Part shown: positions 10,020 to 26,375 of the stretch, one piece after another
Layout of the letters: the number at the start of each line of letters is the position of its first letter
Numbering within the stretch: position 1 is the first letter of the stretch
Assembly (NCBI GenBank): GCA_964470055.1
Contig: CAYXZZ010000001.1
Span: 6,291 to 70,290, forward strand
Length of the DNA stretch: 64,000 bases
Direction: 5' to 3'
From: an uncultured Mycoplasma sp.
GTDB taxonomy: Bacteria > Bacillota_I > Bacilli_A > RF39 > UBA660
Translations under genes and position numbers: made by a program
The notes under the pieces: model-generated
What the model was told of the DNA's origin: nothing
The model's database searches: none
The model's input: only the letters and a program-made list of their open reading frames with translations

Positions 10020-10108
10020 TAAGAAAGGCGCAAGCCTCTTTTTAGTTTGAAAACAAAAGACATCTATGATATATTAAAAGAAATAATAAAGAAACGGAGA
10101 CTTAAAAG

Positions 10109-11171: not shown

Positions 11172-11957
11172 TTAGAGAAAACACTTCTCAATTCTACTAA
11201 TAACGTAATACATTAAATATGAAATAACTCCAAGAATAAACACACCTGTAATAATTAAATCTATATTAAACACCTGTGAACCATACATAATAAGATATCC
11301 AATTCCTGCCTTAGATACTAATAATTCTCCCATAATAACACCAATCAAATTCATAGAAATATTTATTTTCAAAGCACTAATAATAGTTCCATAATTACTA
11401 GGAAAAACAACCTTAGTAAATATCTGCCATTTAGTTGCCTTAAAACTTCTCATCAAAGTAACAAATGCCTCATCTGTATTAATAAAACCATTATAAATAT
11501 TAATAATAGTAATAAAAATACTAATCAGTAAAGACATAAATATAATTGAATTTGTACTCGCACCAACCCAGATAATTATTAATGGACCAAGTGCCACTTT
11601 AGGTAATGAATTAAGTATTGTTAAATACGGATCAATAATTTTCGAAAGAGTAGGACTACTCCATAAAATTGTTCCAATCCATAATCCAATTCCTGTTGCC
11701 AGTAAAAAACTAATTAATATTTCATAGAGAGTAACCCATAGATGTTTAAATAAACTACCATCACTAACTAATCCAACAAATGTATTAATAACTCTACTTG
11801 GTGAAGAGAAAGTAAAAGTATTAATAACTTCTAGTCTAGCCAAAACTTCCCACCCAAGTAAAAATATCACTAATATTAAGATTCTAATTGCAACCACAAC
11901 CACTTTTTCTCTTCGTATCTTCTTAAGATAAATTTCTCTTTCGTTAGATGTGGACAT
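11172..11957 (-). CDS. ABC transporter permease (NitT/TauT, SsuC/ThiX-like)
   Basis: Six-TM permease with an EAA-like loop. It overlaps the ATPase gene as in an operon. Confidence 0.8.
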   Translation of the reverse strand: MSTSNEREIYLKKIRREKVVVVAIRILILVIFLLGWEVLARLEVINTFTFSSPSRVINTFVGLVSDGSLFKHLWVTLYEILISFLLATGIGLWIGTILWSSPTLSKIIDPYLTILNSLPKVALGPLIIIWVGASTNSIIFMSLLISIFITIINIYNGFINTDEAFVTLMRSFKATKWQIFTKVVFPSNYGTIISALKINISMNLIGVIMGELLVSKAGIGYLIMYGSQVFNIDLIITGVFILGVISYLMYYVISRIEKCFL

Positions 11958-12693
11958 CTAAATCCCTCCAAATAGCCTCATAATAAGAAGAAAAATTACT
12001 AGCACTTCTATTATTAATAGGCATTGATCTATTTTCTAACTCGATATTATAAATATTTTTAACAAGGGCTGGTCTCTTAGATAAAACAATAATCTTATCA
12101 GACATTGCTAATGCTTCAGACAAATCATGAGTCACCATAATAGCTGTTTTTCCTTCATTTTTAATTATTCGATAAATATCTTCTCCAATTGCCATTCTTG
12201 ACTGTGAATCAAGTGCTGACATAGGCTCATCAAGTAATAAAATATCAGGTTTTAAAGCCAGAGTTCTAATTAAAGCAACTCTTTGTCTCATTCCACCAGA
12301 TAAACTAGTTGGAAACATTTCTTTAAATTCATAAAGACCATAAGTTTTTAGTAAAGAAATAACATACTCATAATTTTCCTTATTTAGTTTCCCAGTCACT
12401 TCCAACCCAATTAAACAATTATCTAAAATATTTCTCCAATCAAACAAACTATCTTCCTGCAACATATATCCAATACTTACGTCTTTATGAAAAATGATTT
12501 CTCCACTAGATTTATCAGTTAATCCAGCAAGTATCGATAAAATTGTTGATTTACCGCACCCGCTAGGCCCAACAATTGAGATAAATTCATCTTCAAATAC
12601 TTCAAAACTAACTTCATCCAAGGCTTTAATCTCATCACTTTTCGTATGATAAACTTTTCCTAACTTAACAACACTAAGTAATTTATTCTTCAT
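11944..12693 (-). CDS. ABC transporter ATP-binding protein (NitT/TauT family)
   Basis: Walker A 'GPSGCGKST', signature 'LSGGMRQR', Walker B 'ILLLDEP'. Confidence 0.85.
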   Translation of the reverse strand: MKNKLLSVVKLGKVYHTKSDEIKALDEVSFEVFEDEFISIVGPSGCGKSTILSILAGLTDKSSGEIIFHKDVSIGYMLQEDSLFDWRNILDNCLIGLEVTGKLNKENYEYVISLLKTYGLYEFKEMFPTSLSGGMRQRVALIRTLALKPDILLLDEPMSALDSQSRMAIGEDIYRIIKNEGKTAIMVTHDLSEALAMSDKIIVLSKRPALVKNIYNIELENRSMPINNRSASNFSSYYEAIWRDLDVHI

Positions 12694-13103
12694 TATAAAT
12701 CAATTCATCGTAAGAAACTTTTTCATCAATTGCTCCATAATCAAGCATTATATCTTGCAAATGATTAAAAGATTCCTCACTAAAATTAGTTGTCGTAGGC
12801 CAAGCCTCAATACTTCTATATCTTGCAATAACTTTTTCCAAATCGTTTAACGAAGTATCTGGAAACTGTGGAAGAATTACTTCAGCAACCTCTCTATCAG
12901 TGTGACTATGTACATAATCAATTCCTTTTTGAATAGCCTTAGTAAAATTACTAATTAAATCTTTGTTCTCTTTAATATAACTAATTCTAGCAGAATAAGA
13001 AGTATAAGGAACAACTCCGCCTAATTCTCCAATAGAAGCAACTACATATCCATATCCATTATTTTCTATTTCTAACGCATTAGGCTCTCTTAGTGTAACA
13101 AAA
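12683..13103 (-). pseudogene. 3' (C-terminal) fragment of a disrupted NMT1/SsuA-type substrate-binding lipoprotein gene
   Basis: Reverse-strand translation gives '...REPNALEIENNGYGYVVASIGELGGVVPYTSY...DELIYNEE*', a typical SBP C-terminal half. There is no start codon, and the reading frame enters from the direct repeat at 13091-13103. Confidence 0.7.
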
Positions 13104-13132
13104 CAAAAGAACTACCAAAAGTAGTCCTAAAC

Positions 13133-14224
13133 TCATTTTGCAATTTCAAAAGGCAGTCTATTAATTTGATTAAGCTTCTCACCATTATTAATATGAACAT
13201 ACCTATCTAATGTAATCTTAACACTAGCATGTCCTAATATCTCACTCAAAGTTTTAATATCAATACCATTAAGCAGCGACCTAGTTGCAAAAGTATGTCT
13301 TAAAACATGGAAATTATACTTTTTAATATCCAAAGTATTTAAAAAATTTCTATAGAAATGATAATAAACATTTGTAGACATAAAATTTTTAGTACCAGTT
13401 AAAATAAAACAATTATCATTTCCTTTAAATTTTTCTAAATAGGGGATTAACTGATTATGAATTGGTACAATTCTCATTGAAGTCTCCGTTTTAGGTGTAT
13501 CAACAACTACCTTAGTTCTTTTATAAGATACCTCTGGGTTCTTAATTCTAACTAAAGTTTTAGAAACACAAATAACTTGATTCTCTAAATCAATGTCTTT
13601 CCATTGTAAAGCACAAAGTTCTCCAATTCTAAGACCAGTAAACAAAACTAACCAAATTGAAAATAATTTAATATCATCAGATTTTAAAGTTAATTCCTCA
13701 AGCATTGCCAGTTCATCATCCTTAATACTAACAATGTTATTCTTTACAGTTTTAGGATACTCAAATTCAATATTGATTTTCTGTGATTTGAAAAATTGTT
13801 TCAATATTATTAAAATATCCTTAATTCTTTTATTACTTAGCCCCGCTTGTTGTAAATATTTTGTAAACCTTAATATATCATTTTCATCAATATTATGTAA
13901 TCTGGTATTTCCAAAATAAGGAATAAGTCTAGAATTTATAACTGAATAATAATTATAAAATGTTGAATCTTTAATATTCAATTTGTTATTTAGCCATTTT
14001 TTTATTTCAAAAGCAAATGTCTTTTGACCTAAAACATTTTTCTTTGTACTCTTAATCTTTACATTCTCTAACGCCATATCTCTTTTATTTTTTACCTCTT
14101 TATAATTCTTTCCATAAACATATCCATACTTTAATATTTTATTATCATCACCTCTTTCACTCACATACCTAGCCTCATATCTACCATCCTTTCTTCGGTA
14201 GATATTTTCCCCTTTTCTTGACAT
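13133..14224 (-). CDS. Tyrosine-type site-specific integrase
   Basis: The N-terminus 'IYRRKDGRYEARY' is a SAM-like/arm-binding region. The C-terminal catalytic region is 'HVLRHTFATRSL...LGHASVKITLDRYVHI' (R...HxxR...Y). Confidence 0.85.
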   Translation of the reverse strand: MSRKGENIYRRKDGRYEARYVSERGDDNKILKYGYVYGKNYKEVKNKRDMALENVKIKSTKKNVLGQKTFAFEIKKWLNNKLNIKDSTFYNYYSVINSRLIPYFGNTRLHNIDENDILRFTKYLQQAGLSNKRIKDILIILKQFFKSQKINIEFEYPKTVKNNIVSIKDDELAMLEELTLKSDDIKLFSIWLVLFTGLRIGELCALQWKDIDLENQVICVSKTLVRIKNPEVSYKRTKVVVDTPKTETSMRIVPIHNQLIPYLEKFKGNDNCFILTGTKNFMSTNVYYHFYRNFLNTLDIKKYNFHVLRHTFATRSLLNGIDIKTLSEILGHASVKITLDRYVHINNGEKLNQINRLPFEIAK

Positions 14225-14427
14225 CTTATAAATCTCTCCTTTCTATAATATATTTTATGCCATATTCGAGTGTATGAAAAAAGTCGAATTATAAAAATAA
14301 AAAATATTTCAAAAAAGTCTTTTCATTTGTGAAAAAACAAGTTATAATTAAGTCATACTAACATATGAAAATAAAAGTGAATGGTACAAACCAAAAAAGG
14401 ATGGTCATATGTTAAGAAAGGTAGGAG

Positions 14428-15102
14428 GTGAAAAAAATGGAAAAAGGAAGAAGTTCAAAAGTAGTTGCAGTAGTTGCACTAGTAGTTGCAGTATTTGGAT
14501 TAACATTAGGTTTCGCTGCTTTCTCTAATACTTTAGTAATTAGTTCAAGCGCAAACGTTAAACCAGATGCATCAGCATTCAGCGTTGTATTCTCAAATGA
14601 TGCAAATTCAGTTGTTGAAGGTGGTGTTGAAGCAACTACATATGAGGATGGAGTAACAGGAGACGCTGCTACACTTAATGCTACTACAGTATCAGGAATC
14701 AAAGCAAACTTTACTAAACCTGGACAAAAAGTTACATATACTTTCTATGCACACAATACTGGATCATATATCGCTTATTTAAGATCAATCTCATATAAGA
14801 ATATCAGTGAATCAGTACAACAACATAAAGTATGTACTGTAACTACACAAGATGTTGCTGAAAACGAAGCAACAAATGATTTAGTACAAGCAGCATGTGG
14901 TGGTATTAGTATCTCAGTTGATGTTGGTACAGAAAATGCTACAGGTACTGAAACAGTTACAGGTCATGCTTTAGCGTTAAATAGTCATGAAACTGTTGTA
15001 GTAACTATTGAATATGCATCTGATGCATCACCAGCCGATGGAGAATTCGACGTAACTTTCGGAGACATCGAATTACTATACAGCTCAGTTGATGGAGAGT
15101 AA
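14428..15102 (+). CDS. TasA/CalY/camelysin-like secreted protein with a SipW-cognate signal peptide
   Basis: The signal peptide ends in 'LGFAAFSNT', matching the A-[AY]-F-[SN]-[DN] signature cleaved by SipW-type peptidases (compare TasA '..TWAAFND'). The mature part is ~195 aa and Ala/Thr/Val rich. AGGAGG RBS. Confidence 0.55.
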   Translation: MKKMEKGRSSKVVAVVALVVAVFGLTLGFAAFSNTLVISSSANVKPDASAFSVVFSNDANSVVEGGVEATTYEDGVTGDAATLNATTVSGIKANFTKPGQKVTYTFYAHNTGSYIAYLRSISYKNISESVQQHKVCTVTTQDVAENEATNDLVQAACGGISISVDVGTENATGTETVTGHALALNSHETVVVTIEYASDASPADGEFDVTFGDIELLYSSVDGE

Positions 15103-15194
15103 TCTAAAATAATTTATATTACGAGTCAGGCACAATTAGTCTGAATAGTAGTTGTGCCTCCTTCTAATATATTTCAAATTTTAGGAGGGGAAGA

Positions 15195-16322
15195 ATGAAA
15201 AGAGGGTATAAACGATTATTAATATTTGAACTTATCATGTTTTTCATACTTGTACTGAATAGTTTTTTTTGGAATATATTAGGAAGTTACTCAACAGTAA
15301 TTTTTCTTTTAGTAATAGTCGTAATATTTAAAAAGTTATTTGGTATTGAAAGAGATAAGCATAGATATACACAAGATATTATCTTTGACACTATTATATT
15401 TCTTTTAATCTTTTTCCTATTATATTATTTATTTGGTATAGTAATTGGATTTGCTAAAACAGATAATTACTATAATACGGATGGAATGTTTAGATTCGTA
15501 ATACCTGCAATTTTGACAACAATCGTTAAGGAATTTTTGCGTTATCAGGTTATTATGAAATCCGAAGGGAGTAAGTTATTAACAATATTAACTGTAATAA
15601 TGTTCATCTTTATTGATGTAACAAATCCCATTTATTATAATGGCTTTACAGACAAATATGATACATTTATATTTGTAGCATTAACTTTATTACCTTCAGT
15701 AAGTACAAATATAGTTTGTTCTTATCTAACTTATAAAGTAGGGTATAAACCAAACTTGGTATATTTATTAGTAATGAATTTATATCAATACTTATTGCCA
15801 ATTGTTCCAAACCCTAACGAATACATTGCATCGATAGTAAATTTCTTGCTACCGATCTTATTAGGGTATAAGCTAAGTGGTTTTTTCAAAATGGCAATAG
15901 ATGAAGAAGTTGAACGTGAATATAACAAACGAACTATGGCATCCTTAATTATTCCAACAGTAATTGTAATCACATTAGTCTACTTTACATCGGGATACTT
16001 TAAATACTATGCAGTAGCAATCGCTAGTGGTAGTATGGAAAAAGAAATCTCAAAAGGTGATGTAGTTATCGTTGAAAAAATTGAAGATTCATATGATCAA
16101 CTAGAAGAAGGCCAAGTAATTGCCTATAGATATCACGGAATTATAGTTGTACACAGAATAGTAAAAATCCTAAAAGAGGATGGCGAATACTTCGTATATA
16201 CAAAAGGAGATGCCAATAAGGATCCAGACAATTATGTTGTTGAGGAAGAAATGATTCTAGGAAAAGTAAACATAAAAATACCTTTCGTAGGATTACCAAC
16301 AGTATGGTTAAACGAATTATAG
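15195..16322 (+). CDS. Fusion of a polytopic membrane domain (~7 TM, ~260 aa) with a C-terminal SipW-type (S26B) signal peptidase I
   Basis: The C-terminal domain has 'IASGSMEKEISKGDVVIV', 'VVHRIVK', 'TKGDANKDPDNYV' and 'IPFVGLP', which are the SGSME/HR/KGDxNxxD blocks of ER/archaeal-type signal peptidases such as B. subtilis SipW. The N-terminal domain contains 'KEFLRYQ' (weakly CPBP-like). Confidence 0.65.
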   Translation: MKRGYKRLLIFELIMFFILVLNSFFWNILGSYSTVIFLLVIVVIFKKLFGIERDKHRYTQDIIFDTIIFLLIFFLLYYLFGIVIGFAKTDNYYNTDGMFRFVIPAILTTIVKEFLRYQVIMKSEGSKLLTILTVIMFIFIDVTNPIYYNGFTDKYDTFIFVALTLLPSVSTNIVCSYLTYKVGYKPNLVYLLVMNLYQYLLPIVPNPNEYIASIVNFLLPILLGYKLSGFFKMAIDEEVEREYNKRTMASLIIPTVIVITLVYFTSGYFKYYAVAIASGSMEKEISKGDVVIVEKIEDSYDQLEEGQVIAYRYHGIIVVHRIVKILKEDGEYFVYTKGDANKDPDNYVVEEEMILGKVNIKIPFVGLPTVWLNEL

Positions 16323-16332
16323 GAGGTCAGTC

Positions 16333-17742
16333 ATGGACGATAATAAGAAAAAGATTGAAAGAGATCTTGAATATATCGAAGAACAAGATAAGTTGAATGT
16401 CGAAGATGAATCTGAAGCTGCTATTGAAGTTGAAAATATTGATACTGATTTAAATGATCCTATAGAATATTCTGAATATGAAGACAGAATATCAAATGTA
16501 GAAAATCAAAATATTGCTGAATATGAGGAAACATATACAACAGAAATTAATGAAGACACACACATTGAACAACTAGAAGAACCAACAAGACCAATTCCAA
16601 TAATCAACGAGGAACAAGTCTTCTCAGACGATAAACCAACAGAGAAGAAAAGTTTCATTAATAATGTTAAGACAAAAGAAGATGGTCATTATGTTGATTA
16701 CAAAATAAGATTAGCAGGAAGCGTAGTCTTATTCCTAGCCTTATTCACATTAACAGTTATTTTCTTACAAGGTGCATTTAATTTATCATCATCAAGAACG
16801 ATCAACTACAATGAAAACAGTAATTTAGACTACAAAGTATATCTTAAACCGAATGATTTCTATGATACAGATTATTTAGGAAAAAATAAAGCCTATATTG
16901 CTAACCTAATTGATAACATCTTAATCGACTTTAGATATAACTATAACATTGAACAATTATCAAATGTAAAATTCAGTTATAGTATAGTTGCTAAACTTAC
17001 GATTAATGATGGAGCATCAGGCAATAACTACTTTGAAAAAGAGTATGTTTTACTAAATAATAAAACAGCATCAATAGAGAATTCAACTAATTATAGTTTA
17101 TATGAACAAGTAAAAATTGATTATGCATATTATAATACATTAGCAAATAACTTTAAACAACAATACGGAATTGATACAGAAAGTAACTTAACCGTATACT
17201 TACGAGTTAACAAGCAAAATGATATTGAAAATGCTTTAAACTCAGTTGATAATAGTACAATGTTTGTAAAAATACCATTATCAGAAAAATCAGTTAAAAT
17301 TGAGTTAAATTATCAAGACATTAACAATTCTAACTATATTATTGCAACAAATGATAGCATGGTAGATAATATTATTTTCGGAGTTTTAGCATTAGTATCA
17401 ATCCTAATTGCAATCGTCGTTGCAATTAAAATAATCCGTCTATTAAATATGCTAAGAACTAAAAAATCAATTTACGATAAGTATGTTGAAAAAATTTTAA
17501 ATGAATATGATAGATTAATTGTTGAAAACGGTACAGGTCCAGACCTTGTTAAAAACAATATTATCAAAATATCTAGATTTGAAGAATTACTAGACGTAAG
17601 AGACAATTTAAAATTACCAATTATGTACTATGTAATTGCTAAACATACAAAATGTTGTTTCTATATTAAACATAATAGAGATTTATACATGATGACAATC
17701 AAAGCAGTAGATCTTGAAGAATCAAATAACGAAAAGAAATAA
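16333..17742 (+). CDS. Hypothetical bitopic membrane protein with an acidic N-terminal region
   Basis: ~120 aa E/D-rich N-terminus, TM1 (~aa 137-160), a ~190-aa extracytoplasmic domain, TM2 (~aa 350-372) and a ~95-aa C-terminal tail. Translationally coupled to the peptidase gene. Confidence 0.5.
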   Translation: MDDNKKKIERDLEYIEEQDKLNVEDESEAAIEVENIDTDLNDPIEYSEYEDRISNVENQNIAEYEETYTTEINEDTHIEQLEEPTRPIPIINEEQVFSDDKPTEKKSFINNVKTKEDGHYVDYKIRLAGSVVLFLALFTLTVIFLQGAFNLSSSRTINYNENSNLDYKVYLKPNDFYDTDYLGKNKAYIANLIDNILIDFRYNYNIEQLSNVKFSYSIVAKLTINDGASGNNYFEKEYVLLNNKTASIENSTNYSLYEQVKIDYAYYNTLANNFKQQYGIDTESNLTVYLRVNKQNDIENALNSVDNSTMFVKIPLSEKSVKIELNYQDINNSNYIIATNDSMVDNIIFGVLALVSILIAIVVAIKIIRLLNMLRTKKSIYDKYVEKILNEYDRLIVENGTGPDLVKNNIIKISRFEELLDVRDNLKLPIMYYVIAKHTKCCFYIKHNRDLYMMTIKAVDLEESNNEKK

Positions 17743-17754
17743 AAGAAAAATTAA

Positions 17755-17787
17755 ATCATATCCTTAATAAAGGATGTGATTTTTTTA
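17755..17787 (+). terminator. Rho-independent terminator after the 16333..17742 gene
   Basis: 'atcatatcct'-taataa-'aggatgtgat' followed by TTTTTT. Confidence 0.55.
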
Positions 17788-17924
17788 TGTATGAAAATCT
17801 AGAAAAAATGTATTATGAAGTAGCCATCATTCTTAATGAAGAATTATATAAAGAAAATACTATTACTCTAAGTCAGTACAAGCAAGCAGAAGAAAAGTTA
17901 ACGGAAGAGCTAAATAAAAAATGA
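17787..17924 (+). CDS. Small ORF (45 aa) overlapping the serine recombinase start (ATGA), a possible recombination accessory factor
   Basis: Encodes 'MYENLEKMYYEVAIILNEELYKENTITLSQYKQAEEKLTEELNKK'. Its stop overlaps the recombinase ATG. Below the ORF-track threshold and speculative. Confidence 0.2.
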   Translation: MYENLEKMYYEVAIILNEELYKENTITLSQYKQAEEKLTEELNKK

Positions 17925-19327
17925 ATCTCCTTGAAGTAAGACAACAACTAATTTTAGGAGTACCTTTAACTAAACTAAACTTACGAGTAACAGATTATTC
18001 AAGAGTTTCAACCGATCATAAAACTCAACTTTCTTCATTGAAAAATCAAATCGACCATTTTGACAAAATGATTAATGATAATGAAAACTGGACCTACATC
18101 AAAGGCTATGTCGATGAGGGCATTACCGGAACTTCCGACATCAAAAGAGAAAACTTTATGCGAATGATTGAAGATGCCAAAAACAACAAGTTTGATTTAA
18201 TCATTACTAAGGAAATATCTCGCTTCTCTAGAAATACCTTAGACAGCATCAAATATACTCGCGAACTTTTATCTTATGGAGTTGCAGTATTATTCGTAAA
18301 TGACAATATTAATACAGCCCTTCCTGATAGTGAATTAAGGCTAACTATTATGGCTAGTCTTGCTCAAGATGAAATAAGAAGACTATCCGAACGAGTAAAA
18401 TTTGGTATGAATGAATCAATCAATAGAGGCAATATTTTAGGTCATAATAAACTATATGGTTATAAGAAAGATAAAATCACTAATAAACTTGTAATCATTC
18501 CAAAGGAAGCAAAAATAGTAAAAAGACTTTTTAATATGTATGTAATAAACAACAAATCTTTAAATGAAATAGCTAAAGTTTTCAATCAAGAAAAAATTCC
18601 CACTAACAGAAATTGCTTATGGAGCGCAACCACACTATCTAGAATGATTAAAAACATTAAATATAAAGGCTATTATTGTGGAAAAAAAACAGAAGTAATA
18701 GATTACATTACTAAAAAAGTAAAATATATTCCTGAAAGTGATTGGATAATATATAAAGATCCTAAAATACCGCCAATCGTCAGCGAAAGTCTTTGGGATA
18801 AAGCAAATACACGTCTAAAAAGTAAAAAAACAAAAAAACGTCAAAGTCAAAATAAATATTTATATACTTCCAAATTAATATGTAAAACTCACAATAAACC
18901 GTTCTATCGTCGAAAACAAAATAATATAACCTGGTTTTGTTCTGAATATTTAAATAAAGGAAAAGCATATTGTGATACTCCTAATCTAAAAGAAAACGAT
19001 CTTAATCAAGTACTTAAAGAAATATTTAAAAAAATAAATCTTGAACCTATCAAAAAAATTCTTCTAGATATTTATAAAAAATTAAATACTCAAAAAATAA
19101 ATCAAAACTTCTATCAAAAAATAGAAGAAAAGGTAACTATACCAAATATCTTTCCAATCTTAGTAAATAAACTAATCTCAAAAATTATAATTTCAAAAGA
19201 TAAAATCATCCTCTTAGATATCTATCTCAATTATAATATTCATCTAGTCCCCAATCAAATTATTACCATTTCCAGAAATAATTCAAAAGAGTTAATCAAG
19301 TTTCAAATAATTACTCATACAAATTAA
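17921..19327 (+). CDS. Large serine recombinase (resolvase/invertase N-terminal domain, recombinase domain and zinc ribbon)
   Basis: 'YSRVSTDHKTQ' carries the catalytic Ser in a resolvase fold. 'LIITKEISRFSRN' is also present. The C-terminus has Cys-rich 'CKTHNKPF...FCSEYLNKGKAYCD'. Confidence 0.85.
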   Translation: MNLLEVRQQLILGVPLTKLNLRVTDYSRVSTDHKTQLSSLKNQIDHFDKMINDNENWTYIKGYVDEGITGTSDIKRENFMRMIEDAKNNKFDLIITKEISRFSRNTLDSIKYTRELLSYGVAVLFVNDNINTALPDSELRLTIMASLAQDEIRRLSERVKFGMNESINRGNILGHNKLYGYKKDKITNKLVIIPKEAKIVKRLFNMYVINNKSLNEIAKVFNQEKIPTNRNCLWSATTLSRMIKNIKYKGYYCGKKTEVIDYITKKVKYIPESDWIIYKDPKIPPIVSESLWDKANTRLKSKKTKKRQSQNKYLYTSKLICKTHNKPFYRRKQNNITWFCSEYLNKGKAYCDTPNLKENDLNQVLKEIFKKINLEPIKKILLDIYKKLNTQKINQNFYQKIEEKVTIPNIFPILVNKLISKIIISKDKIILLDIYLNYNIHLVPNQIITISRNNSKELIKFQIITHTN

Positions 19328-19455
19328 ATAACACAAAATTATACATCCGCAGATACAACTGCTCATACTAGTTAACTATAAGATGGATAAAACCATCTTT
19401 TATTGTGTTCTTCAATATGATAAAATTAAAATAAGTGAAGGGAAGTAAATAGTAC

Positions 19456-20193
19456 ATGTTAAAAGAGTTTATTCTTAATGAACATCCAAAGTTTTTATTC
19501 AAACAATTTGGGCTAATTCATAACATTTTTATTTTAATTGTCATAATAGGAATGGTAATTATCTATCTAAACAGAAATAAGATTGCTCAAATAACACAAG
19601 AAAAATCAAAAAAAATTTTAAAAATAGGGGCAGTCATTTTATTAGTAAATATGCTCGTTTTTACAATTGGATTTTTATATTACGGTTGTTTTGACTATAC
19701 AAAACATTTACCTTTCCATTTATGCTTTATTGCCAACTACATGTTTATGTATGGAATTCTATTTGAAAAGGAAGAGATTTTAAAATACACGATTTTTCTC
19801 TGTTTTATTGGACCTATTCCAGCCATACTTTGGCCAGATATGGTTTCAACAATTGACAATATGGAGTGGTGGCAATATGTAATATCACATCATGTGTTTA
19901 TAATGTTAAGTTTCTTTTCATATTATGCTCTAGGCTATAAAGTAAAGTTAAAAAATTATCTTAAAGTATTCATTCTTACTAATTTCCTTATGCTAATAAT
20001 GTATCCTTTCAATTTAATTTTTAAAACTAATTATATATTTTCAACACAAATACCGGATAATGTTATGGTTTTATATCCTTGGTTAAAATATTTTCCACCC
20101 ATGTTAACCTTAGAGGTAGTAGGTTTATTAATTTCCGGTGTCATTTATTATTTCATAATCAAAAGAAGAAACAAAGAACTAGAAATTGTCTAG
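19456..20193 (+). CDS. Integral membrane protein, YwaF/TIGR02206-like
   Basis: 6-7 TM with an 'LPFHLCF' motif reminiscent of the TIGR02206 family. Confidence 0.4.
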   Translation: MLKEFILNEHPKFLFKQFGLIHNIFILIVIIGMVIIYLNRNKIAQITQEKSKKILKIGAVILLVNMLVFTIGFLYYGCFDYTKHLPFHLCFIANYMFMYGILFEKEEILKYTIFLCFIGPIPAILWPDMVSTIDNMEWWQYVISHHVFIMLSFFSYYALGYKVKLKNYLKVFILTNFLMLIMYPFNLIFKTNYIFSTQIPDNVMVLYPWLKYFPPMLTLEVVGLLISGVIYYFIIKRRNKELEIV

Positions 20194-20285
20194 TTCTCTT
20201 ATTTTTTTGTCAAATTATCGAAAAACGATAAAAATATATTGAAATTTAATATTAATGTGTTATTATATAACCAAGGAGGTATATT

Positions 20286-20753
20286 ATGAAAATATTTGGA
20301 AATAAAGGAATGGGAAATATACTAAAAATATTATTACAAGTAAGTATGTTAATAATAGGTCTAATTTTAATACTATTATATTGGGTAACAAAATGGTGTA
20401 ATTTGAACTTTGATTGGTTCATCATTATGATTTACCCTTGCGGTATTTGTTTCTTAGCCCTAATTTATCAATTTATAGGATTATTTAATACTTTAAAATT
20501 AAACAATCCCTTCTGTAATGAAAATGTCACAAGAATGAAAAATGGAATGTATTCAAGTTTTATCATTTCTTTCTTTATTACAATTGCTTTATTACTTACA
20601 ATCTTTATCTATAATTATTATTCTCTTCAATTCCAAGTAGCCTTGTTTTGTATGGCCGTTTTATTCTTTGGAGTGGGAATTGCACTTTATATTTTATCAG
20701 AATTATTTAAAGAGGCTACAAACTATAAAGAAGAAAATGAACTAACTATATAA
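20286..20753 (+). CDS. DUF2975-like small membrane protein
   Basis: Four-TM 155-aa protein immediately upstream of a YozG-like HTH gene, which is the known pairing for this family. Confidence 0.45.
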   Translation: MKIFGNKGMGNILKILLQVSMLIIGLILILLYWVTKWCNLNFDWFIIMIYPCGICFLALIYQFIGLFNTLKLNNPFCNENVTRMKNGMYSSFIISFFITIALLLTIFIYNYYSLQFQVALFCMAVLFFGVGIALYILSELFKEATNYKEENELTI

Positions 20754-20766
20754 AGGAGGAAAAACT

Positions 20767-20988
20767 ATGTCAATAATTGTTAATCTAGATGTCATGATGG
20801 CCAAGAAAAAAATCTCCTCACAAGAGTTGGCAGATAAAATCGGTATAACTCAGGCAAATCTATCTATTTTAAAAACAAACAAAGGTAAAGCAATTCGCTT
20901 TACAACTCTAGAAAAAATCTGTGAAGTATTAGACTGTAAACCAGGAGATATTCTTGATTATCAAAAGGAAAGTGATACAAATGAGTAA
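20767..20988 (+). CDS. XRE-family HTH transcriptional regulator (YozG-like)
   Basis: 'ISSQELADKIGITQANLSILKTNKGKAIRFTTLEKICEVLDCKPGDIL' is a Cro/C1 HTH. 73 aa. Confidence 0.8.
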   Translation: MSIIVNLDVMMAKKKISSQELADKIGITQANLSILKTNKGKAIRFTTLEKICEVLDCKPGDILDYQKESDTNE

Positions 20989-22411
20989 TCTTTTATTATT
21001 AATTTTTATTCTCACAATATGGCATTCAATCTTGTTTTATGGTAAAAATTTAGGTCTATCAGTAATTCTTTTTATCCTTCCCTTATTACTATTTCTATAT
21101 AATACGTTAAAAGACAAAATAAAAAATAGAAAAGGTCTACTATTAATAATTCCTATAGTTCTTTTATCATTAACTTATCTATTATTTGATAATACTTTCT
21201 TTAAAGTGATAAATATCCCAATCATCACTATACTATTTATCTTATTATATATTTTTACTATTAAACCAACATTTAATCTAAGTAATCTAGTAGAAAGTAT
21301 AGTTACTTTATTATTTGAACCGTTCAACTACATTTCAAATATCTATCATTTAGTAATAGAAAACATCAAACAAAAAATCAAAATGTCTAATCAGACCAAA
21401 AAAATTATAAAATCAATACTAATAATTTTACCAATAATTCTGCTTATATTAGTATTACTCTCAACTGCAGATCAAATGTTTAACAGTATATTTAAAAAGT
21501 TATTTACTAGTTTAGAAGAACTATCAATCCCATATTTACTAAAAGAACTTCTAATGCGTTTAATTCCTATTATCATATTATTTTTCTACCTAGGCGCAAC
21601 CATTAATTTTATTCTATATAATTATTCTAAGACAAAATATGAAGAGAAAACCACTCAAAGAAAAGTTGATAGCCTTACTATAAAATTATTACTAACCACC
21701 CTAAACATAATTTACATAATCTTTGATATTATTCAAATAAGGTCATTACTTCTTCATCATGTTTCAATGGATATAAGTTATGCAGAATATGCAAGACAAG
21801 GATTCTTCCAACTAATGTTTGTCTCACTTATAAATATTATTGTCATTCTAATTTCTAAAAAGAGCGAAAACAAAAAAGATAAAAAGACAACTACTTACAT
21901 TAAAGTTATGAACATATTAATGATATTTCTAACATTTATCATTATAATATCTGCGTTTATTAGGATGTATATGTATGAGTGCGAATTTGGTTATACCTTA
22001 CTAAGATTACTAGTTTATATTACTTTGGCTACAGAAATAATTCTTCTTATTCCAACAATAATCTACATTACAAATTCCAAATTTAATATTGTAAAATCAT
22101 ATATGATAATTTTAATAAGCGTCTATACCATAATTAATTTTATAAATGTTGACTACATAATAGCCTACAAAAATATAAATAGATACTACAATAAAAAAGA
22201 ATTAGACATTGTCTATTTAGAAAACAATAGTGCAGATAATATTCCACTATTAATTGATTTATACAATAAAACAACAGATCAAGGTCTAAAAGAAGAACTT
22301 AAAGATTATCTAACTTCTATATCTGTAAAACCAAATAGTTTTCAAGAATATAACATTTCAAAAGTAAGGGCGACCAACTTAATAAAGAATATAGATAATT
22401 TCAATAAGTAA
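20981..22411 (+). CDS. Polytopic membrane protein, hypothetical
   Basis: ~12 TM. The likely true start is the ATG at 20981, overlapping the HTH stop (ATGAGTAA). The ORF track gives 20954. Confidence 0.5.
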   Translation: MSNLLLLIFILTIWHSILFYGKNLGLSVILFILPLLLFLYNTLKDKIKNRKGLLLIIPIVLLSLTYLLFDNTFFKVINIPIITILFILLYIFTIKPTFNLSNLVESIVTLLFEPFNYISNIYHLVIENIKQKIKMSNQTKKIIKSILIILPIILLILVLLSTADQMFNSIFKKLFTSLEELSIPYLLKELLMRLIPIIILFFYLGATINFILYNYSKTKYEEKTTQRKVDSLTIKLLLTTLNIIYIIFDIIQIRSLLLHHVSMDISYAEYARQGFFQLMFVSLINIIVILISKKSENKKDKKTTTYIKVMNILMIFLTFIIIISAFIRMYMYECEFGYTLLRLLVYITLATEIILLIPTIIYITNSKFNIVKSYMIILISVYTIINFINVDYIIAYKNINRYYNKKELDIVYLENNSADNIPLLIDLYNKTTDQGLKEELKDYLTSISVKPNSFQEYNISKVRATNLIKNIDNFNK

Positions 22412-22524
22412 ACACAAAAATATATCGACAAAGAAAAACTCTTTGTCTTTTGTTCTTACTCAAGAAAATCTTGTTTTATCTATAAATTTATGTTATAATG
22501 CGTCGTGCTAGGAAAGGGATTATT

Positions 22525-23322
22525 ATGATTAATTATCGCCAAAATAAAAAAAGATATAAACCAAACGAATTAGGGAGTCTATATGTGGACGAATCGAAAT
22601 TAAATCCACATGAGCAACCGGTTATCTACATTGGTGGTCAAATGGAACACCGTTGCCATATCTTAGAACAAACAGGACTAACAGGAGATCAAGGACACAA
22701 TATGTTTACGGGCTCTTGGTTTTATGATTATCCAATTTTTTCAAAGAATAAAGGTAGTTACAATGCTACAAACTTCACCAATAACCTTTTAGAGTCTTTA
22801 CAAGCAGCAAATCTTCATGACGTTATTCTTATTACTGAAAGTTATGGAGGAACAATTGCCTCGCTCGCAACAAAATCAGATTTAATTTCAAAAGCAGTTG
22901 CTATTCATCCATCTATTTTAGGAACATCCCTTGCTAATCCTTATTATTTAGAAGATTTCAAGCAGTATTTTAATAAACGTCAACTCTTAATTTTAAAGGC
23001 CTTAAAAGTTGCTATTAATCCAGAGTATGGTTTTGAACAAGATAACTTCAACGGAATTAATCTAAGAAATGTCGATTTTGATAAACTATTAGTAGTCGGA
23101 AGTTATATTAATCAGGAAACAGAAACAAATCCCATATTACTTGAAACAAGTGATATGATTCAAAAAGTAACTTCAAATAGAAATGATGGAGTAGTTGTTT
23201 TTGAACCAAGAGAGTTTGAACGATTAGGTATTCTATATCTCCAGGAGGACGAACATAATAATCACTTAGCGGCAGGTACCAAGGAACATATTGCGAAAGT
23301 ATACCAAAAAACATTAAAGTAA
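22525..23322 (+). CDS. Alpha/beta-hydrolase-fold protein (lipase/esterase-like), hypothetical
   Basis: 'ILITESYGGTIA' is a nucleophile-elbow-like motif. The start is ambiguous (22498 or 22525). Confidence 0.4.
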   Translation: MINYRQNKKRYKPNELGSLYVDESKLNPHEQPVIYIGGQMEHRCHILEQTGLTGDQGHNMFTGSWFYDYPIFSKNKGSYNATNFTNNLLESLQAANLHDVILITESYGGTIASLATKSDLISKAVAIHPSILGTSLANPYYLEDFKQYFNKRQLLILKALKVAINPEYGFEQDNFNGINLRNVDFDKLLVVGSYINQETETNPILLETSDMIQKVTSNRNDGVVVFEPREFERLGILYLQEDEHNNHLAAGTKEHIAKVYQKTLK

Positions 23323-23952
23323 GGATGTACACCCGTATATTCTTTTTGTTACCTTATCATCAAATAGTGAAACAAAATCTCCATTTCCTCCAATAAAAGA
23401 ACCACTCATTGCTGAAAATGCTACTGATGTATCTAACGTCACTTCATTATCTGAATCAATTCCATTTTGCTTAAGAACATATTTTAAAGTCATTTCCGGC
23501 ATACCATACGCTCTCCCAGCAATAATTGTTTTTCCTTTTAAATCATCTAATGTAAAATTATCAATTTTCTCTCTAGACACCAAGAAAGAACCATCTTTTT
23601 GTGTTAATTGCGCAAAAGTTTTCAAATAATCTTTTTCTCCACCATTATAAACATAGATTGTTGCTTCACTTCCAGAAAAACCAATTTCTGCATCACCTGA
23701 CAATACAGCCGCAGTAACTTTATCTGCACCATTTGCCAATATGAGTTCAACATCTAATCCATATTCTTCAAAGTAACCTTTCTCTAAAGCCACGTATTGT
23801 GGAGCATAAAAGATTGTATGTGCAACCTCCGCAACAGTAATTTTCTCTAACTCTGTTTGTTCTTTGCTACTGCTAGCATCAAATAAAACAGAACATGCAA
23901 GTATCAACAGTAATACTGCAAATAAAACATAAATAACTAATTTCTTTCTCAT
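23314..23952 (-). pseudogene. 5' (N-terminal) fragment of the disrupted NMT1/SsuA-type substrate-binding lipoprotein gene
   Basis: A lipoprotein signal 'LLLILAC' and SBP N-terminal half are followed by '...GGNGDFVSLF'. The ORF then runs into element DNA ('DDKVTKRIYGCTSLL*'). Confidence 0.7.
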
Positions 23953-24184
23953 AAATCTCCTTTCTAACTAAAGTATTATATGAATAATAAAAAAATATGT
24001 TATATCGAACTAATGACAACTAAAAAAACATATGATATCATCTAAATAAGAGAAACAGAGGAGTAAAATAACAAATACTACTTCCATATTTTAGAAGTAA
24101 TTATTGCAATTACAATAAATTTTATCATTAGATTAATTCACACCAAAAGAAGAAAAAACTTAAAAATTAATAAGGAGAATCACT

Positions 24185-24727: not shown

Positions 24728-24854
24728 AAAAATTTCAAAAAATGTTCAAAATGAGCTTTTTTTGACTATAATAATGAGACAAGTGAGATAAAAACTTGCA
24801 AAAATCAAATATTTGTGTTATAATATAGCCACATTTAGTGAAGGGGGAAAAAAT

Positions 24855-26375
24855 ATGAAAAAATTAACACAATTAACAAAAAACATTTTATTAGTATTAG
24901 TTAGTGCCGTAGTTTTATTAACAACTATCAATACTAATGCCGTTGCTTCATCTATTGAATTAGGTGGAACAGAAATTGTACCAGGTTATGTTTCAGGAGT
25001 AAAATTCACTACAAAAACAAAATCAGATGGTACTTTATTATACTGTCTTAATATGAATAAAAAGACTGCTAAAAATATTACTGCTAATTTAGTAGGAGAA
25101 AGAGATGCCGGAGTTGCTTATATCGTAACAAATGGTTATCCAAACAAAACCTTTACAGGTGAAAAACTAAAAGACTACTACATCACTCAAACAGCACTTT
25201 GGTGGTATTTAGACAACACAACTGGTAGTTCAAATCTTAGTGAAAAATTCAAAACAACAGGTGAAGATGAATACAACTTAAGACCAACAATTAAAGCATT
25301 AGTTGCCAAAGCAGAAGAAGCAAAGAAAGCAGGATATGCCAAAACAGAATTGGCTATTACAACAAGTAACGTAGAAATGACTTTAGAAGATGGATACTTC
25401 ATTTCTAATGAAATCTATGCTAAAACATACAGTAACATTTCAAGTTACAAAGTATCAGTAAGTGGAGCAACAAATGCTGTAATTATTAACTCTGCTGGAA
25501 AAGAAGTTACATCAGTAAACGTAGCCGATAAATTCAGAGTAAAAGTACCAGCAAGTTCAGTTAAATCAACTGAAATGTCAATTAAAGTTACTGCAAGTGC
25601 AACAGGAGTAGTATATAAAGCATATGAATATCAACCAACAGATTCAAGCATGCAACCAATAACAGCGGCTATTCCTGAAAAAGAAACAGTAACTGCTACT
25701 GCTAACTTAACATTAGAAATTGAATCATCAAAAGTAAGTATTGTAAAAGTTGATAAAAATACTCAAAATGCTCTACCAGGAGCAACCTTAGTATTAAAAG
25801 ACTCAAATGGAAATGTCGTAACAAGTTGGACATCAACAAATAACTATCATGTAATTAGAAACTTAAAAAATGGTACATATACAGTTGCCGAAACTGTTGC
25901 ACCAACAGGATATATTTTAAATAGTACGCCTGTTACATTCACTATTACAGATACAAACAGAGACATAAAAGTAAAAGTAGAAAACACACCAAGAGATGTA
26001 GTTGTTAACATCTTAAAGGTTGATGCCTCTACTCAAAATCCATTAGCCGGAGCCGTATTAGTTCTAAAAGATTCAGCAGGTGTCGAAATAACAAGATTTA
26101 CAACAACTACTGAACCAGAAGTATTTACAGATTTAGCAAACGGAACTTATACAGTTGAAGAAATTTCTGCTCCAACTGGCTACATGAAAAGTTCTGAAAA
26201 AATAACATTTACAATTACAGATGAAAATCAATCACATCAAATTATATTTGAAAACCATCCAGAAGTACCAGTGCCAAACACTGACACATCATCACTAATT
26301 ATCACATTATTAGGTATTGTAGTAATCGGTTTAGGAATCAGCTTCGTATATAAGAATGGTAAGAAATCTCAATAA
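24855..26375 (+). CDS. Surface adhesin with an N-terminal thioester (TQXA) domain and two Cna-B/prealbumin-like domains
   Basis: Signal peptide present. 'LLYCLN' (Cys) and 'YYITQTALWWY' (TQxA[LIV]W) form the thioester pair. Two repeats read 'KVD.(S)TQN.L.GA.LVLKDS.G'. The C-terminus is 'PVPNTDTSS' followed by a hydrophobic stretch and 'KNGKKSQ', a sorting-signal-like tail. Confidence 0.65.
   Translation: MKKLTQLTKNILLVLVSAVVLLTTINTNAVASSIELGGTEIVPGYVSGVKFTTKTKSDGTLLYCLNMNKKTAKNITANLVGERDAGVAYIVTNGYPNKTFTGEKLKDYYITQTALWWYLDNTTGSSNLSEKFKTTGEDEYNLRPTIKALVAKAEEAKKAGYAKTELAITTSNVEMTLEDGYFISNEIYAKTYSNISSYKVSVSGATNAVIINSAGKEVTSVNVADKFRVKVPASSVKSTEMSIKVTASATGVVYKAYEYQPTDSSMQPITAAIPEKETVTATANLTLEIESSKVSIVKVDKNTQNALPGATLVLKDSNGNVVTSWTSTNNYHVIRNLKNGTYTVAETVAPTGYILNSTPVTFTITDTNRDIKVKVENTPRDVVVNILKVDASTQNPLAGAVLVLKDSAGVEITRFTTTTEPEVFTDLANGTYTVEEISAPTGYMKSSEKITFTITDENQSHQIIFENHPEVPVPNTDTSSLIITLLGIVVIGLGISFVYKNGKKSQ

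What the first reader, a model, noticed from the sequence alone, without database searches (positions are those of the whole stretch)
13091..23377. 10.3-kb integrative element inserted in an ABC substrate-binding-protein gene with 13-bp direct repeats
One NMT1/SsuA-type SBP lipoprotein ORF is split into two halves.
- The N-terminal half is at 23952->23314, ending '...GDFVSLF' and then running into foreign sequence.
- The C-terminal half is at 13103->12683, '...REPNALEIENNGYGYVV...'.
- Between them lie 10.3 kb bounded by TAGTGTAACAAAA (13091-13103) and TAGTGAAACAAAA (23365-23377).
- Removing the element restores a single in-frame SBP (GDFVSL|REPNA) at the head of an SBP-ATPase-permease operon.
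- A tyrosine integrase sits at the left end.
- This looks like a recent insertion that inactivates a NitT/TauT-type (possibly thiamine-pyrimidine or sulfonate) importer.
Basis: seen in the sequence. Interest (0 to 1): 0.7.

Follow-up and report, generated by a model that had tools for sequence, protein, structure and literature searches.

The report
Serine-recombinase island splitting a transporter gene
A 10.3-kb mobile island really does split the binding-protein gene of a nutrient importer in an uncultured gut bacterium. It was inserted by its large serine recombinase at a 2-base crossover, not by the tyrosine integrase at a 13-base repeat, and this transporter operon is a repeated landing site for such islands in related species.

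Summary
The split gene and the 13-bp repeats are real, at the stated coordinates.

- **Crossover.** 45 intact orthologues, two alternative junctions from other samples and four complete sister elements place it on one TC dinucleotide (13086-87 and 23360-61; GA of Glu198 in gene sense).
- **Element.** It spans 13088-23361 (10,274 bp). Excision at TC restores ...GDFVSL-F-EPNA..., the conserved sequence.
- **13-bp repeats.** They are the P' and B' half-sites, in register 3 nt from TC.
- **attP.** The rebuilt site is a palindrome centred on TC: 14-17 of 20 in four elements.
- **Recombinase.** Three sister elements at the same site have the serine recombinase but no tyrosine integrase.
- **Age.** The insertion is not a one-off. 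It occurs in all seven same-lineage contigs, including a relative about 5% diverged. There the C-terminal gene half shows dN/dS 0.10 and identical att sites.
- **Hotspot.** In 13 of 80 related species the same operon carries serine-recombinase elements at about seven sites.

Verdict: a new member of a known kind and a candidate reversible gene interruption.

The parts
13088..23361 (.). Integrated element A, 10,274 bp counting one copy of the TC crossover
   Evidence: Boundaries come from the alignment of 45 intact orthologues, alternative junctions L084/L086 and sister elements. No DNA-level match to known phages.
13066..13107 (+). attL: B arm 13066-13085, crossover TC 13086-13087, P' arm 13088-13107
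   Evidence: Sequence read. Arms defined. Identical in the ~5%-diverged relative L103.
23340..23381 (+). attR: P arm 23340-23359, crossover TC 23360-23361, B' arm 23362-23381
   Evidence: Sequence read. L084 keeps the SBP side down to 23360 and L086 keeps the element side up to 23361, each joined to different DNA. Identical in L103.
13091..13103 (+). It is part of the P' half-site and contains GTAACAAAA, one arm of the 9-bp perfect inverted repeat of attP.
23365..23377 (+). It is part of the native B' half-site and encodes D-F-V-S-L of the SBP on the minus strand.
23344..23352 (+). TTTTGTTAC, the P-arm partner of the 9-bp inverted repeat. Each arm lies 7 nt from TC.
   Evidence: geometry read.
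23360..23952 (-). SBP gene, native N-terminal part: codons 1-197 plus GA of Glu198. As it stands the ORF runs on to 23314 with a 15-residue foreign tail.
12683..13087 (-). SBP gene, native C-terminal part: from GA(G) of Glu198 to the stop. It has no start codon of its own before 12841.
   Evidence: dN/dS 0.10 against L103.
11944..12693 (-). ABC ATPase gene, intact. Its start overlaps the SBP stop.
11172..11957 (-). ABC permease gene (BPD_transp_1), intact.
17921..19327 (+). Large serine recombinase, 468 aa (Resolvase + Recombinase + Zn_ribbon_recom; DYSRVST motif). Proposed integrase of the element.
   Evidence: 60-68% identical homologues sit at the same site in L088, L089, L099, L100 and L101.
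17787..17924 (+). 45-aa ORF whose stop overlaps the recombinase ATG (ATGA). Conserved in six sister elements. Candidate directionality factor or regulator (inference).
   Evidence: No family match.
13133..14224 (-). Tyrosine integrase, 363 aa, apparently intact. Accessory: not required for this insertion site.
   Evidence: dN/dS 0.05. Absent from L099, L100 and L101.
13108..13128 (-). Terminator-like hairpin after the tyrosine integrase gene. Its T-tract runs into the P' arm.
14428..15102 (+). Secreted protein with a SipW-type signal peptide (called TasA-like on my reading of its N-terminus; no family hit).
   Evidence: dN/dS 0.64.
15195..16322 (+). SipW-type signal peptidase I with a long membrane N-terminus.
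16333..17742 (+). DUF5305 protein.
19456..23322 (+). Variable cargo block: TMEM164-like acyltransferase (19456-20193), DUF2975 (20286-20753), HTH_26 regulator (20767-20988), DUF4153 (20954-22411) and a 274-aa protein (22498-23322).
   Evidence: The same DUF2975-HTH-DUF4153 cassette occurs in L100 and L101.

Best explanation
Window 13088-23361 is an integrated genomic island with no phage or conjugation genes. Its own large serine recombinase (17921-19327) inserted it by attP x attB recombination at a single TC dinucleotide. In gene sense that is GA, the first two bases of codon Glu198 of an NMT1/SsuA-like SBP lipoprotein gene, the first gene of an SBP-ATPase-permease operon.

The 13-bp 'direct repeats' are not a duplication. 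One is the native B' half-site and the other is the element's P' half-site. They resemble each other because the same recombinase binds both, and both lie 3 nt from the crossover.

While the island is integrated:
- the SBP is truncated after residue 197;
- the ATPase and permease genes sit 10.3 kb from their promoter, behind a terminator-like hairpin, so the importer is most likely off (inferred).

Excision at TC would restore the gene exactly (shown at the sequence level). The tyrosine integrase belongs to an accessory module (integrase + secreted protein + SipW + DUF5305) that only some sister elements carry. The conserved 45-aa ORF fused to the recombinase start may be its directionality factor (inferred).
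For: 1. **Crossover mapped to 2 bp.** All 45 aligned orthologues read ...GTn(ACn/TCn)yTn TTy GAr CCn... (F-E-P). So native sequence reaches 23360 on the N side and starts at 13087 on the C side. The bases next to TC differ between the element and native arms.
2. **Independent breakpoints in the same species.** L084 keeps the SBP side down to 23360, and L086 keeps the element side up to 23361. Each is joined through TC to a second element B that has its own serine recombinase.
3. **Palindromic attP.** Rebuilt attP is palindromic about TC: 14/20 here, and 16/20, 17/20 and 16/20 in L099, L100 and L101. attB scores 7-9/20. Here a 9-bp perfect inverted repeat lies 7 nt from TC on each side. Element B scores 15/20.
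4. **Same site, same recombinase, different cargo.** The same site and the same TC are used in five other species by elements with 60-68% identical serine recombinases. Three of them have both ends in one contig and no tyrosine integrase.
5. **Recombinase looks complete.** It has all three large-serine-recombinase domains. It matches phrog_95 integrase at 4e-98. Its best PDB hit is a conjugative-transposon recombinase catalytic domain at 2e-40.
6. **Rule holds for other insertions.** Other insertions in this operon have serine recombinases that cluster by site. Each has a palindromic attP about a 2-bp centre.
Against: - No recombination assay, and no excised circle or same-species empty site, was found. 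The best intact SBP is 83% identical. There were 0 hits in JGI metagenomes or IMG/VR for junction patterns.
- The recombinase gene lies mid-element here (4.8 kb and 4.0 kb from the ends), not next to an att site as in L100 and L101.
- P' and B' are similar in register. In the structural model of serine integrases (as I recall it) the zinc-ribbon motif sits 5 bp further out in attP than in attB.
- The tyrosine integrase is intact, under purifying selection (dN/dS 0.05), and sits 45 bp from the junction. A role in excision or transfer cannot be excluded.
Confidence: 0.85

Rival explanations
1. First reader's model. The tyrosine integrase at the left end inserted the element by recombination within the 13-bp core TAGTG(T/A)AACAAAA, which is now present as direct repeats.
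For: An intact tyrosine integrase gene ends 45 bp from the junction. The 12/13 repeats sit at both ends in register with the reading frame.
Against: - Native sequence extends 5 bp beyond the right repeat. The triplet between TC and the left repeat is non-native here (TCT) and in L088, L100 and L101 (ACT, CCT, AGT), against AAA in every orthologue. So exchange cannot have occurred inside the repeat.
- Joining at the repeat yields Arg for an invariant Phe.
- L099, L100 and L101 use the site without any tyrosine integrase.
- The inverted-repeat core shared downstream of 61%-identical homologues of this integrase is absent from the window.
Confidence: 0.03
2. A heterology-tolerant tyrosine integrase (Tn916- or CTnDOT-like) made staggered cuts about 7 bp apart starting at TC. 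The mismatched overlap then resolved to the native sequence at one junction and the element sequence at the other.
For: Two features resemble what I recall of CTnDOT sites: a 2-bp identity followed by a short heterologous stretch, and a conserved flanking block shared by attP and attB. The integrase has the Phage_int_SAM_3 plus catalytic-domain layout common in Firmicutes integrative and conjugative elements.
Against: - The palindromic symmetry of attP is centred exactly on TC in five elements, not 2-3 bp to one side.
- Every junction seen has the same polarity: native triplet at attR and element triplet at attL, in the window, L088, L089, L099, L100, L101 and L084. Heteroduplex resolution should give both outcomes.
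- Three elements lack the integrase.
Confidence: 0.04
3. Alternative reading of the role, with the same insertion mechanism. The island is a dead-end insertion that permanently inactivated a dispensable importer. It no longer excises and has no regulatory significance.
For: - No empty site or circle was found anywhere.
- All same-lineage contigs are occupied.
- The operon tolerates double hits (L100, L103).
- No transfer genes are on the element.
Against: - Between the window and L103, both occupied and about 5% diverged, the SBP C-terminal half has 12 synonymous and 5 non-synonymous changes. That gives dN/dS 0.10, with P=1e-5 against neutrality.
- The attL and attR 40-mers are identical while adjacent DNA differs.
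- None of 11 reconstructable interrupted genes carries a further stop or frameshift.
- Recombinase dN/dS is 0.10.
- The presence or absence of element B in the same species shows the site is still active.
Confidence: 0.35

Closest known systems
Serine-integrase integrative genetic elements that disrupt coding sequences, i.e. 'regulated gene integrity' candidates (Mageeney et al. 2020, PMC7192596)
   Same: A site-specific large serine recombinase inserts mid-gene without restoring the gene. The same position is used by several members of one integrase clade across species, which is that paper's working criterion for regulated gene integrity. Tandem arrays form at the recombinant att sites.
   Different: The target is a nutrient-importer SBP gene in uncultured gut Bacilli, and 'ABC transporter' does not occur in that paper's text. 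Conditional excision is untested here.
gin element in gerE of Bacillus cereus (GirC + GirX; PMC5595907)
   Same: It is a non-phage gene-intervening island carrying more than one recombinase gene, of which only one serine recombinase does the job. That recombinase works with a tiny factor that has no known motif: GirX is 42 aa, and the ORF here is 45 aa.
   Different: The extra recombinases of gin are serine type, whereas here the extra one is a tyrosine integrase. gin has a 9-bp overlap, against 2 bp of identity here. gin excision is sporulation-specific.
SPbeta SprA/SprB in spsM and skin SpoIVCA in sigK (PMC5499854, PMC4191935)
   Same: A serine recombinase element splits a gene and precise excision rebuilds it. 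A small directionality factor is encoded close to the integrase.
   Different: Those elements are prophages or prophage remnants whose excision is tied to the sporulation mother cell. Here there are no phage genes and no known developmental context.
Tn4451/Tn5397-type serine-recombinase transposons (TnpX, TndX)
   Same: From my own knowledge, these are flanked by a GA dinucleotide and their targets resemble the joint of the circular form. Here the crossover is GA in gene sense and attB resembles attP. The best PDB match is a conjugative-transposon recombinase catalytic domain (3g13).
   Different: Here one conserved site is used across species (site-specific, not multi-targeting). No DUF4368 domain was detected. 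No mobilisation or conjugation genes are present.
Distantly related large serine recombinases converging on one target gene cluster (Durrant et al. 2022, PMC10083194)
   Same: Several recombinase lineages, 22-40% identical to each other, target one conserved locus.
   Different: Here about seven different positions, spread over three adjacent genes of one operon, are each used by their own lineage. There are double hits and a tandem array in single genomes.

Membership tests
Large-serine-recombinase (serine integrase) integrative element | Encodes a recombinase with resolvase catalytic domain, recombinase domain and zinc-ribbon domain, and an N-terminal catalytic serine motif | tested here: met
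   PF00239 at 8e-29, PF07508 at 5e-23 and PF13408 at 2e-5, all above cut-off. The DYSRVST motif was read. phrog_95 integrase at 4e-98.
Large-serine-recombinase (serine integrase) integrative element | Exchange at a 2-bp central dinucleotide shared by attP and attB, with no longer target duplication | tested here: met
   TC is the only stretch common to the native and element arms at both junctions. This is fixed by 45 orthologues, by L084/L086 and by five sister elements.
Large-serine-recombinase (serine integrase) integrative element | attP of about 40-50 bp with imperfect inverted-repeat arms centred on the dinucleotide | tested here: met
   14/20, 16/20, 17/20 and 16/20 complementary positions about TC in four elements. 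15/20 for element B.
Large-serine-recombinase (serine integrase) integrative element | Recombinase lineage co-varies with the attachment site, independently of cargo | tested here: met
   60-68% identical recombinases sit at the same site with different cargo. Identity is 57-98% within a site and 22-40% between sites.
Large-serine-recombinase (serine integrase) integrative element | Zinc-ribbon-binding motif displaced about 5 bp outward in attP relative to attB (structural model, recalled from memory) | tested here: inconclusive
   P' and B' share 12/13 bases in register. Other sister elements show different arm resemblances. The protein-DNA register cannot be read from sequence alone.
Large-serine-recombinase (serine integrase) integrative element | Recombinase catalyses attP x attB, and a directionality factor enables attL x attR | not testable with these tools
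   Only a conserved 45-aa ORF overlapping the recombinase start was found. It matches no family.
Tyrosine-integrase island bounded by an identical core repeat | Identical overlap of 6-8 bp or more at both ends, within which exchange occurred | tested here: not met
   The repeats differ at one base, and exchange is excluded from them.
Tyrosine-integrase island bounded by an identical core repeat | The integrase is present wherever the site is used | tested here: not met
   Absent from L099, L100 and L101. No homologue was found in 80 related operon loci by jackhmmer.
Regulated gene integrity (reversible gene interruption) | Coding sequence disrupted without restoration by an element-borne fragment | tested here: met
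   The N-terminal ORF ends in a 15-residue foreign tail. The C-terminal part has no start codon.
Regulated gene integrity (reversible gene interruption) | Several independent integrations by one tight integrase clade at the same position | tested here: met
   Window/L103, L088, L089/L090, L099, L100 and L101, with different cargo and attP flavours.
Regulated gene integrity (reversible gene interruption) | The interrupted gene stays under purifying selection while occupied | tested here: met
   One pair only. C-terminal half dN/dS 0.10, 12 synonymous and 5 non-synonymous changes, P=1e-5. This assumes the insertion predates the split of the two lineages.
Regulated gene integrity (reversible gene interruption) | Excision occurs, is conditional, and restores function | not testable with these tools
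   No empty site or circle was found in assemblies.
Prophage, or integrative conjugative/mobilisable element | Carries capsid/tail/terminase genes, or relaxase/coupling protein/type IV secretion genes | tested here: not met
   Pfam and PHROGs hits among the ORFs scanned are limited to the two recombinases and the cargo listed. No DNA match to 50,697 phage records.
SsuA (sulfonate) or ThiY (pyrimidine) binding proteins | Scores above the family cut-off, or has a TPP riboswitch upstream | tested here: not met
   SsuA_fam 60.7 bits against cut-off 163.5. No Rfam hit near 23953-24184.

The most novel reading that the evidence does not exclude
The NMT1-type ABC importer operon of this clade of uncultured gut Bacilli is a dedicated landing pad for a radiation of large-serine-recombinase islands. 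About seven attB sites lie across three genes. Each is served by its own recombinase lineage, with tandem and double occupancy. The interruptions are reversible: excision, possibly driven by the 45-aa ORF, rebuilds the gene, so the islands act as heritable on/off switches of nutrient uptake in a non-sporulation context. That would explain why the split gene stays under purifying selection.
Probability: 0.25. Interest if true: 0.65.

Novelty: new member of a known kind. Interest (0 to 1): 0.45.

Why it matters
- **New recombinase-site sets.** It gives a cleanly mapped recombinase/attP/attB set: a 42-bp attP, a GA core and five natural variants. There are at least five further recombinase-site pairs in the same operon. 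Such pairs are the raw material for genome-engineering tools.
- **A caution for element mapping.** Imperfect 'direct repeats' at the ends of an element, next to a tyrosine integrase gene, can be half-site mimicry by a serine recombinase encoded kilobases away.
- **A testable biological question.** A split gene kept under purifying selection, in an operon hit repeatedly across species, is a candidate for reversible gene interruption outside sporulation and heterocyst development. This can be tested directly with reads from the named samples.

Tried and rejected
- **Same-species empty site or excised circle: none found.** The best intact SBP among 5.8 billion clusters is 83% identical. A 23-nt N-side junction pattern gave 0 hits in JGI metagenomes. 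An attP 23-mer gave 0 hits in IMG/VR. Recombinase scans of metagenome and viral contigs gave one 41% relative and nothing, respectively.
- **Tyrosine integrase as an invertase of the secreted-protein promoter:** no convincing inverted repeats flank 14225-14427.
- **Core site of tyrosine-integrase homologues** (ATATAAAGT-N5-ACTTTATAT): not present in the element.
- **Two tandem elements with an internal junction** near 17743-17920 or 19328-19455: no att-like remnant was found, only a terminator-like hairpin.
- **Vertical inheritance of the other operon insertions:** rejected. They are patchy on the SBP tree, and some recombinases are 97-98% identical between more distant hosts.
- **Apparent 5' deletion of the SBP gene in L100:** this turned out to be a second insertion at the residue-75 site.
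- **MT837325** (48% identical recombinase, 7.1 kb): unrelated to elements A or B and has no terminal repeat.
- **Substrate assignment** by riboswitch or NCBIfam: nothing usable.
- One search was an empty script run.

Full report
**1. The observation**

On the minus strand, an ORF starting at 23952 encodes a lipoprotein-like NMT1/SsuA-type binding protein. It reads ...GGNGDFVSLF and then 15 unrelated residues before a stop at 23314. The remainder...EPNALEIENNGYGYVV... to the stop at 12683, lies 10.3 kb away. It overlaps the start of an ABC ATPase gene, which in turn overlaps a permease gene.

The joined 331-aa protein finds hundreds of uninterrupted 327-333-aa homologues, up to 83% identical at 100% coverage. 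Its DNA aligns straight across the junction with related loci. The two halves are therefore one gene. The 13-mer on its own is not statistically remarkable: 3 matches at <=1 mismatch in the window against about 1 expected. What matters is its position.

**2. Where the exchange really happened**

I aligned the junction region of 45 orthologous genes. All of them encode ...D-F-V-(T/S/A)-L-F-E-P-(N/T)-A.... This has three consequences:

- On the N side, the window is native through TTTGA, down to position 23360.
- On the C side, it is native only from GA-GCC, at position 13087. The triplet between that GA and the left repeat (AGA in gene sense) replaces the invariant Phe codon.

The bases next to the dinucleotide differ between the element and native arms. 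Exchange is therefore confined to TC on the plus strand, at 13086-87 and 23360-61.

Two contigs of the same species from other samples give independent breakpoints:

- L084 matches the window from 23360 onward but is preceded by different DNA, which encodes the C-terminus of another serine recombinase.
- L086 matches the element up to 23361 and then continues into different DNA.

Both switch exactly at TC. Together, the two foreign ends form a palindrome about TC (15/20). This indicates a second element, B, inserted in tandem.

**3. Which recombinase**

The element carries two recombinase genes:

- a tyrosine integrase (13133-14224, minus strand);
- a complete large serine recombinase (17921-19327), with resolvase, recombinase and zinc-ribbon domains and a DYSRVST motif.

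Joining the element's ends gives TTCTTTTTGTTACCTTATCA-TC-TCTTAGTGTAACAAAACAAA. This is 14/20 palindromic about TC, with a perfect 9-bp inverted repeat 7 nt from TC on each side.

Relatives of the serine recombinase (60-68% identical) lie in elements at the same codon and the same TC in five other species:

| Locus | Ends recovered | Tyrosine integrase | attP palindrome about TC |
|---|---|---|---|
| L088 | left end only | present | not rebuilt |
| L089/L090 | right end only | left end not seen | not rebuilt |
| L099 | both | absent | 16/20 |
| L100 | both | absent | 17/20 |
| L101 | both | absent | 16/20 |

A jackhmmer search found no homologue of the tyrosine integrase in any of the 80 related operon loci, but found serine recombinases in 13 of them.

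A tyrosine recombinase acting inside the 13-mer is excluded by section 2. A heterology-tolerant one cutting from TC is disfavoured for three reasons: the symmetry centre of attP, the uniform polarity of all junctions, and the integrase-free elements. The 13-bp 'repeats' are thus the P' and B' half-sites. They are similar because one protein reads both.

**4. Anatomy and likely consequences**

- **Conserved core.** The core of the element family is a 45-46-aa ORF whose stop overlaps the recombinase start, followed by the recombinase.
- **Optional left module.** A secreted protein, a SipW-type signal peptidase and DUF5305 are present here and in L088, L099 and L103. The tyrosine integrase is present here and in L088 and L103 only.
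- **Variable right-hand cargo.** Here it is a TMEM164-like acyltransferase, DUF2975, an HTH regulator, DUF4153 and a 274-aa protein. Elsewhere it includes SDR, UPRTase, xanthine permease, GH3 and TPM phosphatase genes.
- **No transfer functions.** There are no phage, replication or transfer genes.

A 61% homologue of the tyrosine integrase sits beside a similar secreted-protein/SipW/DUF5305 set, next to nadE. No serine recombinase lies in the roughly 10 kb of flanking sequence recovered. A conserved inverted-repeat core lies downstream of it. This suggests the integrase came in with that module. Its function in this element is unresolved, although it is under purifying selection.

In the integrated state the SBP is truncated. 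The ATPase and permease genes are cut off from the operon promoter and follow a terminator-like hairpin. Loss of importer function is an inference. The substrate is unknown.

**5. Age and reversibility**

- Seven contigs of this lineage, from about six samples, all have the site occupied.
- L103 is 93.5-95.4% identical to the window and carries the same element, including the tyrosine integrase. Element genes (dS 0.07-0.34) have diverged about as much as the flanking host genes (dS 0.17-0.30).
- Between these two occupied genomes, the C-terminal SBP half has 12 synonymous and 5 non-synonymous changes. That gives dN/dS 0.10, with binomial P=1e-5 against neutrality.
- Both 40-bp att sites are identical while the DNA just outside them differs.
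- Rebuilt SBP genes from the window, L099 and L101 are intact ORFs of 330-331 aa.

The insertion is therefore not very recent. The gene has also not decayed. That fits periodic precise excision or turnover through empty alleles. This rests on one pair and on the assumption of a shared ancestral insertion. No empty site or circle was found in assemblies.

**6. The wider pattern**

Among 80 species-level loci holding this operon, 13 carry a serine recombinase gene inside it. None lies in the 857 kb of flanking DNA. The sites are:

| Gene | Approximate residue | Loci |
|---|---|---|
| SBP | 75 | L078, and L100 as a second hit |
| SBP | 196 | this window and its relatives |
| ATPase | 138 | L079, L003, and L103 as a second hit |
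| ATPase | 192 | L075, L076 |
| ATPase | 197 | L018, L021 |
| ATPase | 216 | L054 |
| Permease | 206 | L007, L014, L024, L025, L064 |

- Recombinases cluster by site: 57-98% identity within a site and 22-40% between sites.
- Each complete element has a palindromic attP about a 2-bp centre: GG, GT or GA, at 11-16 of 18 positions.
- Occupancy is patchy on the host tree. Some recombinases are more alike than their hosts, so the elements move horizontally.
- That several distant serine recombinases converge on one target gene is already documented. Here the convergence is spread over many sites of one operon.

**7. Comparison with what is known, and verdict**

The element meets the sequence-level definition of a serine-integrase integrative element. 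It also meets the comparative criterion used for 'regulated gene integrity' candidates.

Its closest described analogue is the gin element of B. cereus gerE. That is a non-phage intervening island with several recombinase genes, of which one serine recombinase plus a 42-aa factor performs the rearrangement.

It fails the tests for a tyrosine-integrase island, a prophage and a conjugative or mobilisable element.

My verdict is a new member of a known kind. That reading and the operon-wide hotspot give the finding moderate interest.

Noticed in passing
L084:1-1300 and L086:1-863 (same species; window equivalent 23360/23361): A second element, B, abuts the same TC. It has its own serine recombinase (42-48% identical to the A type) at one end and a ParA-like gene at the other. 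Its rebuilt attP is 15/20 palindromic. Its P arm mimics the native sequence, encoding E-P-S-A against native E-P-N-A. The N-half variant with the B-type junction (201 aa) is recorded on 4 contigs.
   Followed up: partly
L103:11531-21092: In a ~95% identical relative that also carries element A, the ATPase gene is additionally interrupted after GGMRQRV (about residue 138-143). The interrupting element carries AbiEii, DEAD/ResIII-AEP and HTH genes. This is the same site used in L079 and L003.
   Followed up: partly
L100:14100-14700: The SBP gene is hit twice in one genome. One element sits at residue 196. A second junction at residue ~75 (...YLFTGADKV...) matches the L078 type. Arylsulfotransferase-like cargo lies beyond it.
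   Followed up: partly
L001-L080 (13 loci: L003, L007, L014, L018, L021, L024, L025, L054, L064, L075, L076, L078, L079): The SBP-ATPase-permease operon is a hotspot. Serine recombinase genes occur only inside it (0 in 857 kb of flanks), at about seven positions. Each position has its own recombinase lineage and a palindromic attP.
   Followed up: yes
window 17787-17924: A 45-aa ORF whose TGA overlaps the recombinase ATG. It is conserved (LYYExAxxxNxELY) in six sister elements and matches no family. It is similar in size to the 42-aa GirX factor of the gin element.
   Followed up: partly
L092:2051-2250, L094:11107-11300, L095:11095-11300: Homologues (61%) of the tyrosine integrase share an inverted-repeat site, ATATAAAGT-N5-ACTTTATAT, about 70 bp past their stop codon. 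In L094 the integrase is again next to a secreted-protein/SipW/DUF5305 set, beside nadE. No serine recombinase lies in the roughly 10 kb recovered on the island side.
   Followed up: partly
window 14428-15102: The SipW-dependent secreted protein evolves fast (dN/dS 0.64 against L103), while every other element gene is at 0.05-0.15.
   Followed up: no
window 3886-4148 (+): T-box leader (RF00230, 105.8 bits). It is the only Rfam hit in the window.
   Followed up: no
window 8859-11143 (+): Two paralogous proteins of 386 and 344 aa. Pfam finds an NlpC/P60 domain (CHAP weak) on the 344-aa one and nothing on the 386-aa one. They lie just downstream of the permease gene and next to small WXG100-like genes in L086. 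This looks like a type VII secretion effector-like cluster.
   Followed up: no
window 24813-27006 (+): A TED/SpaA-type pilin with an LPXTG-like end, followed by a sortase. These flank the interrupted operon on the promoter side.
   Followed up: no
L014:5088-7317 and L034:10380-10523: L014 has a 616-aa ORF of unknown nature between the SBP and ATPase genes. L034 has an extra fragment of the SBP C-terminus (residues 283-330, 56% identity) about 500 bp downstream of its intact SBP gene.
   Followed up: no
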